The position numbers and the translations under genes are program-made. Positions 27,780-29,526 of a stretch of 64,000 bases of DNA are shown in pieces; the stretch's first letter is position 1, and every line of letters starts with the position of its first letter. Location: positions 124,001 through 188,000 of the forward strand of contig JAWMAR010000882.1 of the NCBI GenBank assembly GCA_036785375.1, given 5' to 3'. The notes beneath the pieces were generated by a model. It did not search any database and was not told where the DNA came from. It was given only the letters and a program-made list of their open reading frames with translations. This stretch comes from Leucoraja ocellata. Taxonomy: Eukaryota.

Positions 27780-28225
27780 GTTTGAGCATGAGAATGTTAT
27801 ACTCTTTTGATGTATCAAATATATTGACTTGCTCAGTCAATTTCAGTTAGAGCTTAAGAGAAAAGTTTCAAAAAAGTGTATTCCTTCAAAGCACTTGACA
27901 GCCATTTTGCTATTTTGTAAATGTAGCCATATATAGGATACATGGCAGCCAAATTTCATACAACAGTCAGAAATACATGTGTGCCTTAAGTTGATCAATG
28001 GTCAGCGTGGACTCGGTGGGCCGAAGGGCCAGTTTCTTTCACTGGTTCAATGACCAGGTAATTTGTTTTAGTGATAATGGTTAACTGGTATGTATTGGGC
28101 AGGTTTTTCTTTTCATCTTTATAAACTATACATTTACTGAACATTTCCATTAAATATAAAGGAAAGATTGAAATGGCCCAAGCTCTTTTTTGCAGATGAC
28201 TTGGTAGCCATCATTTTAGATTATG

Positions 28226-28431
28226 TGTAAGAAGGAACTGCAGATGCTGGTTTGTACCGAAGATAAACACAAAAAGCTGGAGTAACTCAGCAGGTTAGGC
28301 AGCATCTCTGGAGAGAAGGAATGGGTGATGTTTCGGGTCGAGACCCTTCTTCTGTCTGACCCAAAACATCACCCATTCCTTCTCTCCAGTGATGCTGCCT
28401 GTTCCGCTGACTTACTCCAACTTTTGTGTCT
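28226..28431. mobile_element. Penelope-derived inverted-repeat element with 13-bp TSD
   Basis: Inverted arms; ATTTTAGATTATG at 28213-28225 and 28432-28444. Confidence 0.75.
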
Positions 28432-28943
28432 ATTTTAGATTATGAAATGGCTTCATGAGGAGAATATACAAATGATGGTCCTCTTTGTTGGAGGATGCTA
28501 AAGTAGGGGTGGTATAAATTGTTCACCAATAATTAAGGAATTCAAGGGAAACTACTATATCTGGTGAAAGATTGAGATGTGGAACAGCAGTGTGGTGCAG
28601 CTGGGAGGAAAGGAATTTAAGGGAATGTCTGTTGAGTACATGAGAGAGATGGAAATTGATGGAGTTTGGAGAAAGAGTGAAACACAAAATAAACCCCGGG
28701 TTTAATTGCCTGCTGTTGTGGTGTAAATCCTATATAATTCAATGGATAAATAAATAGTGTACTAAGAATGGATTGAACCTGTATGTTATACTCTTGGTTT
28801 GTCTTTATCAAAATTATATGATGCCAACAAACCAATTCAGCCACATCTGTCTCAGGGTCTGTCGACTTGCTGGACACGCAGAGAATCTGATGGATGATTG
28901 GAAATCAAATAGAAGTTGCTGAGTCCAACTGTCTTTTCAACAT

Positions 28944-29170
28944 ATGTAGGAAGGCACTGCAGATGCTGATTTACACCGAAGAAAGACACAAAATGCTGTA
29001 GTAACTCAGTGGGTTAGACAGCATTTCTGGAGAGAAGGAATGGGTGATGTTTTGGGTCGAGACCCTTCTTCAGACAAGAAAGTCTGAAGAAGGGTCTTGA
29101 CCCGAAAAGTCATCCATTCCTTCTCAACTGAGGTGCCACCTATCCCGCTGTTACTCCAGCATTTTGTGCC
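28944..29170. mobile_element. Penelope-derived inverted-repeat element with 15-bp TSD
   Basis: Head-to-head arms (...cccttcttcagac-aagaaa-gtctgaagaaggg...); CTGTCTTTTCAACAT at 28929-28943 and 29170-29184. Confidence 0.8.
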
Positions 29171-29526
29171 TGTCTTTTCAACATGTCTGGCTGACTGGTA
29201 CCCTCTGCTGCTTTTTGCCAGGTACTGCAGTAGTTCATCCGAGCCTTTATTTTTAAAGAAGTAATTTTAATAATTTAGTTGAGTACCCTGAAGCTTTTTG
29301 ATAGATTGTCCACTGCACTGGGGCAGAAACCTGATATCTTACAGTGGAATTCAGAGAGTGGTTCTCCTTTTTGCTCCCTATCACTCCCCATACCACTTCT
29401 TCCAGCTTTTGCCATTCCTCTCCTAATCTTCCCCCTCTCACGAGGAAAGAAGTGATCTTACACAAATGGAAAATCAGTGCCTTCATTCTTTCAATTGACC
29501 TGGTGTTTGTTTATTTCCCTGCTTAG

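What the first reader, a model, noticed from the sequence alone, without database searches (positions are those of the whole stretch)
28213..29184. Abundant family of palindromic, TSD-flanked Penelope-derived mini-elements with outward-facing hammerhead cores
Seen: about 20 copies in 64 kb (near 4886, 12990, 13432, 21841, 25902, 27203, 28226, 28944, 31124, 33896, 34360, 36338, 39059, 40780, 45205, 56865, 57577, 59786, 63010). Many are head-to-head arm pairs centred on cccttcttcagac...gtctgaagaaggg, so each strand carries a CUGAAGA...GAAACGUC motif. TSDs vary in length (10, 13, 15, 19 bp), as expected for target-primed retrotransposition rather than a cut-and-paste MITE. Inference: a non-autonomous, ribozyme-bearing, hairpin-forming retroelement system that looks like a MITE and seeds dsRNA into introns and UTRs. 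Hammerheads in Penelope elements are known; how well this palindromic derivative is described I cannot tell.
Basis: partly seen in the sequence, partly recalled or inferred. Interest (0 to 1): 0.7.

Follow-up and report, generated by a model that had tools for sequence, protein, structure and literature searches.

The report
Head-to-head stumps of Penelope retrotransposon
These hairpin-shaped repeats in a ray or skate genome are pairs of ends of a very common Penelope-type jumping gene, joined head to head and likely built afresh at each insertion with mostly broken, masked ribozyme motifs, so they are a known insertion footprint and probably not a new kind of mobile element.

Summary
The repeats are real: all 19 listed sites hit; there are 9 head-to-head pairs in the window and 100 in 1.10 Mb sampled, against 0 tail-to-tail. 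The arm (~97 bp, optional ~35-bp tail) is the 5' UTR and 3' pseudo-LTR of a ~4.0-kb RT + GIY-YIG Penelope-like element (Neptune/Nematis-type linker) of an elasmobranch. The pairs are not one family copied as a unit: 126 junction types in 138 pairs, in all six subfamilies, mixed with body-bearing copies on a tree. 73 of 80 classifiable pairs join one tailed and one tail-less arm; TSDs centre on 14 bp (9-19); both outer ends show target microhomology. This favours priming from both target nicks at two RNA start sites over fold-back. Inverted pLTR + tail + TSD is published PLE architecture. The hammerhead is complete only in the consensus: 0 of 9 window pairs and 1 of 138 overall keep two cores, and the hairpin masks them. 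Less explained: arm 5' ends pile up just before the core, not at the cleavage site. The scan reported the same thing twice before in other genomes. New member of a known kind.

The parts
28213..28225 (.). Left copy of 13-bp target-site duplication, element 1
28225..28352 (-). Inverted arm with tail (model positions 5-132, subfamily SF3); hammerhead core broken at its 5' end
28358..28433 (+). Direct arm without tail (from model position 18 to the short end); lacks the CUGANGA core
28432..28444 (.). Right copy of 13-bp TSD; 2 nt shared with the arm's short end
28929..28943 (.). Left copy of 15-bp TSD, element 2
28945..29075 (-). Inverted arm with tail (model 1-131, SF3); CUGAAGA kept, G12 and the ACGU palindrome lost
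29076..29081 (.). 6-nt junction filler, particular to this copy
29082..29176 (+). Direct arm without tail (model 1-97); core present but helix-III palindrome lost
29170..29184 (.). Right copy of 15-bp TSD, overlapping the arm's short end
27203..27300 (+). Solo tail-less arm of the youngest subfamily, complete minimal core, 19-bp TSD, empty site in a related organism
39060..39158 (+). Solo tail-less arm, 10-bp TSD
4846..5086 (.). Head-to-head pair (older subfamily)
13432..13648 (.). Head-to-head pair (SF5)
33896..34051 (.). Head-to-head pair; tailed arm cut short at model 64, tail-less arm nearly whole
34407..34540 (.). Head-to-head pair (SF5)
40789..40885 (.). Head-to-head pair, both arms without the core
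57576..57723 (.). Head-to-head pair, decayed
63008..63186 (.). Head-to-head pair; tail-less arm whole, tailed arm from model 59
59803..60135 (-). Arm that continues upstream into the element's 3' UTR
27785..29525 (+). Host intron holding both elements, between exons of an uncharacterised ~1500-aa elasmobranch gene (exons 13.8-42.4 kb)

Best explanation
The palindromes are two copies of the terminal repeat (pLTR) of an RT + GIY-YIG Penelope-like retrotransposon joined head to head inside one target-site duplication, and they are likely made anew at each insertion rather than copied as a unit. Shown: the arm is the start and the end of a ~4.0-kb unit; pairs nearly always join one tailed and one tail-less arm of one subfamily; junctions differ; TSDs centre on 14 bp. 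Inferred mechanism: the endonuclease nicks both target strands about 14 bp apart; each 3' end pairs by 1-4 nt with the element RNA and primes reverse transcription, one at the distal start site (tail included), the other at the proximal site ~35 nt upstream; both cDNAs stop early, often at a hot spot just 5' of the hammerhead core, and are joined at their 3' ends by microhomology or a short filler. If one cDNA runs on, the product is the published 'inverted pLTR + truncated body'; if only one is kept, a solo arm. The hammerheads are passengers, predicted to be inactive in the hairpin.
For: Arm follows the ORF stop in at least 18 of 20 EN-bearing loci and in all 20 loci; RVT_1 and GIY-YIG hits, both below Pfam's cut-off; 1164 homologues, many with PF00078+PF26215, nearest named ones from sharks and rays. 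Arm + tail continues into the ORF start (ATG at unit position 165-166; units 4036 and 4062 bp). 3' ends are bimodal at 93-98 and 130-132. 73 of 80 classifiable non-redundant pairs are short + tail (binomial p 6e-15; 58 of 138 pairs could not be classed); 108 of 138 pairs are same-subfamily against 19% expected; 126 junction signatures in 138. The tail-less arm reaches at least 8 nt further 5' in 34 of 73, the tailed arm in 12, within 7 nt in 27; a fold-back copy of a tail-started cDNA cannot be the longer arm, and a tail cannot be copied from a tail-less one. TSD found in 45 of 138 pairs (control 1 of 300), 18 of 24 young mixed pairs; 13-16 bp in 21 of 28. Target/element overlap of 2 nt or more at the short end in 12 of 25 and at the tail end in 12 of 23, rough null 17%. 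Inverted arms abut truncated bodies in L004, L151, L155, L182, L195. Palindromic arms are scattered on an SF1 tree (11 changes, shuffled 12.2). Literature: inverted 5' copy, 30-40-bp tail and TSD described (PMC3846280, PMC8557442, passages); anole Poseidon protein cuts and extends both strands and starts at two internal sites that bound the tail, without needing ribozyme cleavage (PMC11167929, parts 1-2 of 4).
Against: All mechanism steps are inferred from genome footprints; the in-vitro data come from another clade (Poseidon) and report no difference in start site between strands, whereas my data need the two sites to be coupled. Later deletions at hairpin centres could produce arm asymmetry in either direction and weaken the 34-versus-12 test. 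93 of 138 pairs have no TSD by my score, and solos seldom do (17 of 223; 1 of 42 for internally truncated solos of at least 88% identity). A few junction types recur (one 6 times, one 4 times at helix II); recurrence at self-complementary sites explains this, but so would limited copying as a unit. The tree has 98 columns and 53 of 71 branches open. No fully intact ORF was seen in the 28 loci examined for long frames (longest 768 aa).
Confidence: 0.78

Rival explanations
1. Same origin, but the second arm is a fold-back (self-primed) copy of the first cDNA, trimmed by the endonuclease to leave a tail on one side.
For: Proposed for rotifer PLEs (PMC3846280 passages); tail ascribed to EN-mediated resolution (PMC8557442 passages); symmetric junctions at self-complementary helix II recur; arms of a pair are slightly more alike than same-subfamily arms (0.848 v 0.826, 23 of 37, p 0.003).
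Against: The tail-less arm is the longer one in 34 of 73 pairs against 12 the other way; microhomology at both outer ends; solos and body-bearing copies end at the same short site with no inverted arm (85 short / 87 tail; 21 / 14).
Confidence: 0.12
2. A dedicated non-autonomous palindromic or solo element (SINE- or retrozyme-like) with its own start site is transcribed and mobilised as a unit by the Penelope protein; this is the first reader's reading.
For: Very high copy number (560 arms in 1.10 Mb); sharp 5' boundary (147 of 423 arms start at positions 1-4 with no UTR); solos show weak clustering on the tree (18 of 500 shuffles as low); arm RNA is abundant in a related organism.
Against: Junction heterogeneity, tail asymmetry, body-bearing copies in all six subfamilies, shared sequence variants across solo, pair and body classes, 0 of 147 with a shared upstream exon, complete cores in 41 of 542 arms, no start peak at the arm's 5' end in four RNA runs (fragmented libraries, weak test).
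Confidence: 0.08
3. A DNA-transposon MITE.
For: Short, palindromic, abundant.
Against: TSDs of 9-19 bp, unequal ends, variable centre, and direct continuity with an RT + GIY-YIG ORF.
Confidence: 0.01

Closest known systems
EN+ Penelope-like element insertions with inverted pLTR, tail and TSD (Adineta vaga Pen2/Pen2a, PMC3846280; general scheme in PMC8557442; D. virilis Penelope, PMC2377424)
   Same: Head-to-head inverted terminal copy, 30-40-bp tail on one side, partial tandems, heavy 5' truncation, TSD around the whole insert.
   Different: Here the body is usually truncated to nothing, copy number is about a million, and TSDs centre on 14 bp against the 8-10 bp cases quoted for Adineta.
Neptune/Nematis clades of PLEs
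   Same: C-terminal GIY-YIG with CCHH motif and a CX4CxxC linker (features from PMC8557442).
   Different: No RT tree against named references was built; the N-terminal part holds a long proline-rich repeat stretch; no microsatellite targeting stood out in the TSD lists.
Anole Poseidon (PAc), PMC11167929
   Same: Two 3' ends bounding a tail, minimal hammerhead in the pLTR, no sign that the cleavage site makes element ends, AT-rich targets (TSDs 69% AT v 56%).
   Different: In PAc the ORF starts inside the ribozyme; here ATG lies ~33 nt behind the tail. Other clade.
Non-LTR retrozymes (PMC7229834; bioRxiv 10.64898/2026.07.22.740005)
   Same: Non-coding, hammerhead-bearing, pLTR-related, present in vertebrates including one chondrichthyan sampled.
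   Different: Retrozymes are head-to-tail tandem units with a hammerhead in each; these are head-to-head, variable and mostly core-defective.
L1 twin priming (recalled, not from a call)
   Same: Both target nicks prime reverse transcription, giving an inversion inside one TSD.
   Different: L1 inverts an upstream, non-overlapping part of one RNA; here both arms duplicate the same terminal sequence.

Membership tests
EN+ Penelope-like element (parent) | Single ORF with RT and C-terminal GIY-YIG | tested here: met
   (Pfam E 4e-5 and 4e-4, below curated cut-offs)
EN+ Penelope-like element (parent) | pLTR formed by partial tandem; 5' truncation | tested here: met
   19 of 30 5'-complete loci (17 after removing two duplicates) are preceded by the 3' end of another copy
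EN+ Penelope-like element (parent) | Optional 30-40-bp tail and inverted 5' copy | tested here: met
EN+ Penelope-like element (parent) | Minimal type I hammerhead in the pLTR | tested here: met
   Core, extra nucleotide before helix II, 4-bp helix II with U-A/U-G variation and ACGU palindrome in subfamily majority sequences; helix I only about 2 bp; complete in 41 of 542 copies; no Rfam hit
EN+ Penelope-like element (parent) | Self-cleavage of the RNA | not testable with these tools
   No excess of element ends at the predicted cut (4 ends at positions 29-33 v 26 at 19-28 and 15 at 34-43)
Neptune/Nematis clade | CX2-5CxxC linker before GIY-YIG and CCHH motif | tested here: met
   translations; definition
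Neptune clade | RT phylogeny with named references | not tested
   no named reference set was at hand
Non-autonomous family copied as a unit | Shared junction and monophyly of copies | tested here: not met
   126 signatures in 138 pairs; 11 changes v 12.2 shuffled on a weakly resolved tree
MITE | Fixed-length TSD and equal terminal inverted repeats | tested here: not met
Non-LTR retrozyme | Head-to-tail tandem units each with a complete hammerhead | tested here: not met
   100 head-to-head v 32 same-strand neighbours within 40 bp; cores mostly lost
Non-LTR retrozyme | Circular RNA intermediate | not testable with these tools
   only poly(A)/cDNA short-read runs of another organism were laid

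The most novel reading that the evidence does not exclude
One dimeric Penelope particle primes both target nicks in a coupled way, one at each of the two RNA start sites, and often copies only the element's own 5' UTR up to the RNA's 5' end, a 'strong-stop'-like cDNA that begins at an initiator-like TCAGT just before the hammerhead. In rays and skates this has left about 1.7 million arms and about 300,000 hairpins (4% of the assembly), a natural record of the unsolved PLE integration step and a large source of intronic hairpin RNA.
Probability: 0.35. Interest if true: 0.55.

Novelty: new member of a known kind. Interest (0 to 1): 0.3.

Why it matters
As an element it is ordinary: repeat annotators should treat these MITE-like hairpins as truncated Penelope insertions, not as a new family. 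Its value is as data. How PLEs make inverted ends, tails and TSDs is described as undefined in PMC8557442, and only one protein has been tested in vitro. A genome with some 300,000 such pairs lets the coupling of the two start sites, the ~14-bp nick stagger and the 5' stop be measured directly. If transcribed, the hairpins would be the batoid counterpart of inverted Alu pairs for editing and dsRNA sensing (analogy recalled, untested).

Tried and rejected
Rfam scan: no hammerhead, only sub-threshold miRNA/snoRNA matches. Pfam GIY-YIG search of the genome returned another PLE family; the arm matched only 2 of those 20 loci, weakly. Ribozyme cleavage as the source of element ends: no peak. Splicing of the element's own coding end onto the arm as the source of the 5' boundary: 0 of 147 upstream flanks matched convincingly, and none of the 15 listed RNA joints had that form (285 not shown); the polypyrimidine + CAG before the arm still looks like an acceptor. 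A pure transcription-start explanation is weakened because most 5'-complete copies run on into the upstream UTR (19 of 30 loci; only L252 and L172/L198 start at positions 1-2). No RNA holder of the window was listed; RNA run X13 of another organism covered only repeats, so expression of this intron is open. A homologue search with the exon at 33118 found nothing. Paper searches for a description of this family; none listed a paper on palindromic Penelope derivatives of elasmobranchs, but Repbase, Dfam and subscription journals were not searchable, and no supplements were opened. The random sample stopped at 1.10 Mb, so copy numbers are extrapolations. No structure or complex prediction was run.

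Full report
Observation. The window has 41.5% GC and one N run. BLAST with six subfamily references built from held copies finds 32 arm hits in the window and none in a reversed-sequence control. Nine are head-to-head pairs. The two in 28213-29184 carry 13-bp and 15-bp duplications, and solos at 27203 and 39060 carry 19 and 10 bp. A contig of run X6, from another organism, skips 27187-27294, exactly the arm plus one duplicate, so that one is a true TSD (record 17). Both focal elements lie in an intron (27785-29525) of an uncharacterised ~1500-aa gene conserved in sharks and rays; MTHFR lies on the other strand at 51.3-52.8 kb.

Abundance. In the window plus 104 stretches of 10 kb that I chose at round coordinates (two flank the window; 1,102,779 bases) there are 560 arms, 4.3% of bases, and 100 head-to-head pairs within 40 bp against 0 tail-to-tail. 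Scaled to the 3.44-Gb assembly this is about 1.7 million arms and 310,000 pairs. The assembly holds a second copy of this region on C23, so these figures count duplicated haplotypes, and large contigs are over-sampled.

Parent element. A genome hit, L004, showed an inverted tailed arm fused to a GIY-YIG-coding fragment followed by a direct arm. Following this gave open frames of 563 and 521 aa with RT and GIY-YIG matches, both under Pfam's cut-offs, and 1164 homologues; the nearest named are from Rhincodon, Hypanus, Chiloscyllium, Stegostoma and Mobula at 62-68%. The endonuclease part had 193,712 first-look candidates in the genome. Walking upstream reached whole units of 4036 and 4062 bp that begin with arm + tail, have ATG at position 165-166, and end with a pyrimidine-rich 3' UTR and the arm again. 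19 of 30 5'-complete loci are preceded by the 3' end of another copy, the classic partial tandem. The linker has CX4CxxC and the EN has CCHH, as in Neptune and Nematis (PMC8557442 passages). Subfamilies lie 6-18% from their own majority sequence. No fully intact ORF was seen in 28 loci checked.

Are the palindromes a family? No sign of it. Among 138 non-redundant pairs from all held loci (94 from the random set) there are 126 junction signatures; the recurring ones sit at self-complementary spots. Pairs occur in all six subfamilies, each of which also has UTR-bearing copies. On a tree of 78 SF1 arms the 13 palindromic arms need 11 changes, against 12.2 for shuffled labels; resolution is poor. 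I used only arms at least 91% identical to SF1 and covering positions 4-92 for that tree.

How they likely form. 3' ends fall at two places, 93-98 and 130-132. Solos use both about equally (85 short, 87 tail, 51 unclassed). Pairs do not: 73 of 80 classifiable pairs have one of each (58 unclassed). 108 of 138 have both arms from one subfamily, against 19% by chance. TSDs score in 45 of 138 pairs (control 1 of 300), with 13-16 bp in 21 of 28 mixed pairs and a mode of 14. The duplication overlaps the element by 2 nt or more at the short end in 12 of 25 and at the tail end in 12 of 23, against a rough null of 17%. The tail-less arm reaches further 5' in 34 of 73 pairs, the tailed arm in 12. A fold-back copy of one cDNA cannot give those 34 without later deletion. 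The simplest reading is priming from both nicks, one at each start site. This fits the anole Poseidon protein, which cuts and extends both strands and starts at two sites that bound the tail (PMC11167929, parts 1-2 of 4 read), although that paper saw no strand difference in start site. The layout itself is published: inverted pLTR, 31-bp tail and 9-10-bp TSD in Adineta (PMC3846280 passages), an inverted 5' copy and 30-40-bp tail in PLEs generally (PMC8557442 passages; PMC8969392 passages), and inverted repeats of variable size in D. virilis (PMC2377424 passages).

The hammerhead. Subfamily majority sequences carry the minimal type I motif described for PLE pLTRs (PMC4209133, parts 1-2 of 4): core, one extra base, a 4-bp helix II whose closing pair varies U-A/U-G, and palindromic ACGU; helix I is about 2 bp. 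That paper already notes dual motifs on opposite strands 100-700 bp apart and low activity that needs dimers. In copies the motif is decayed: complete in 41 of 542 arms; 125, 12 and 1 of 138 pairs keep 0, 1 and 2 cores; 0 of 9 window pairs keep any. The central CG is kept in 82 of 221 arms and changed to CA or TG in 79. The focal palindromes fold at -119 to -136 kcal/mol; opening the core and helix II costs 35-41 kcal/mol in two palindromes against 5-8 in the lone arms. Each strand has one core, so a cis dimer is not available. Element ends do not gather at the predicted cut.

What remains odd. Of 423 arms, 147 start at positions 1-4 with no upstream UTR, 47 run into the UTR, and 229 start internally over ~100 nt. 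The base before position 1 is A in 41 of 64 solos. The site reads TCAGT, like an initiator (consensus recalled), follows a polypyrimidine tract + CAG, like a splice acceptor, and lies 2 nt before the core. One whole unit (L172/L198) starts exactly there, but most 5'-complete copies run through it. RNA of a related organism showed the same boundaries as loose ends, head-to-head joints in all four runs, both orientations, and no start peak. A strong-stop product from the 5' UTR, an early RT stall and an acceptor all stay open.

Prior art. Two earlier scan notes on other genomes reach the same filing (e1-9880922, e1-9551492); the second calls it a fold-back stump, which my arm-length and microhomology counts disfavour. 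They are not independent support. A sequence look-up found nothing. A 2026 preprint ties tandem retrozymes to PLE pLTRs (part 1 of 5 and passages); PMC7229834 and PMC6155905 were read as passages. Nine searches listed no paper on this family, but Repbase, Dfam and supplements were not seen.

Verdict. New member of a known kind; interest 0.3, mostly for the in-genome evidence on coupled two-site priming.

Noticed in passing
L014, L024, L032 (e.g. G000:C353:2077565, C2032:144152): A second, unrelated, young GIY-YIG Penelope-like family with a 759-aa open frame in dozens of near-identical copies, arrayed with (CCCTAA)n telomere-type repeats; no arm match and no CUGANGA..GAAA core in the five loci scanned.
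   Followed up: no
window 28945-29176 v L002 (C23 copy): The two assembly copies differ at 13 of 232 sites in this palindrome against 30 of 2648 outside and 0 of 203 in the neighbouring palindrome; post hoc, could be hairpin-linked mutation or conversion.
   Followed up: partly
arm model positions 48-56, 77-85 and 107-116: The motif CCAGCAT occurs once before each of the two 3' ends, and both can pair with AGATGCTG upstream; a possible pair of RT positioning sites.
   Followed up: no
window 13734-42431 (+) and 51277-52861 (-): Uncharacterised ~1500-aa elasmobranch gene tail-to-tail with MTHFR; by recalled human synteny probably C1orf167.
   Followed up: partly
L203: A large inverted arrangement of two partial-tandem PLE blocks (about 6 kb), the long form of the same head-to-head structure.
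   Followed up: no
L136:5791-5882: A solo arm with a 12-bp duplication inserted inside the RT-coding region of another copy of the same family.
   Followed up: no
window 33999-34046, run X13: About 1900 RNA reads of another organism show a direct tandem duplication of part of an older arm, probably one highly expressed transcript.
   Followed up: no
window 19058-19525: A separate long inverted repeat (arms 19137-19242 / 19340-19445) not matching the arm; not examined.
   Followed up: no
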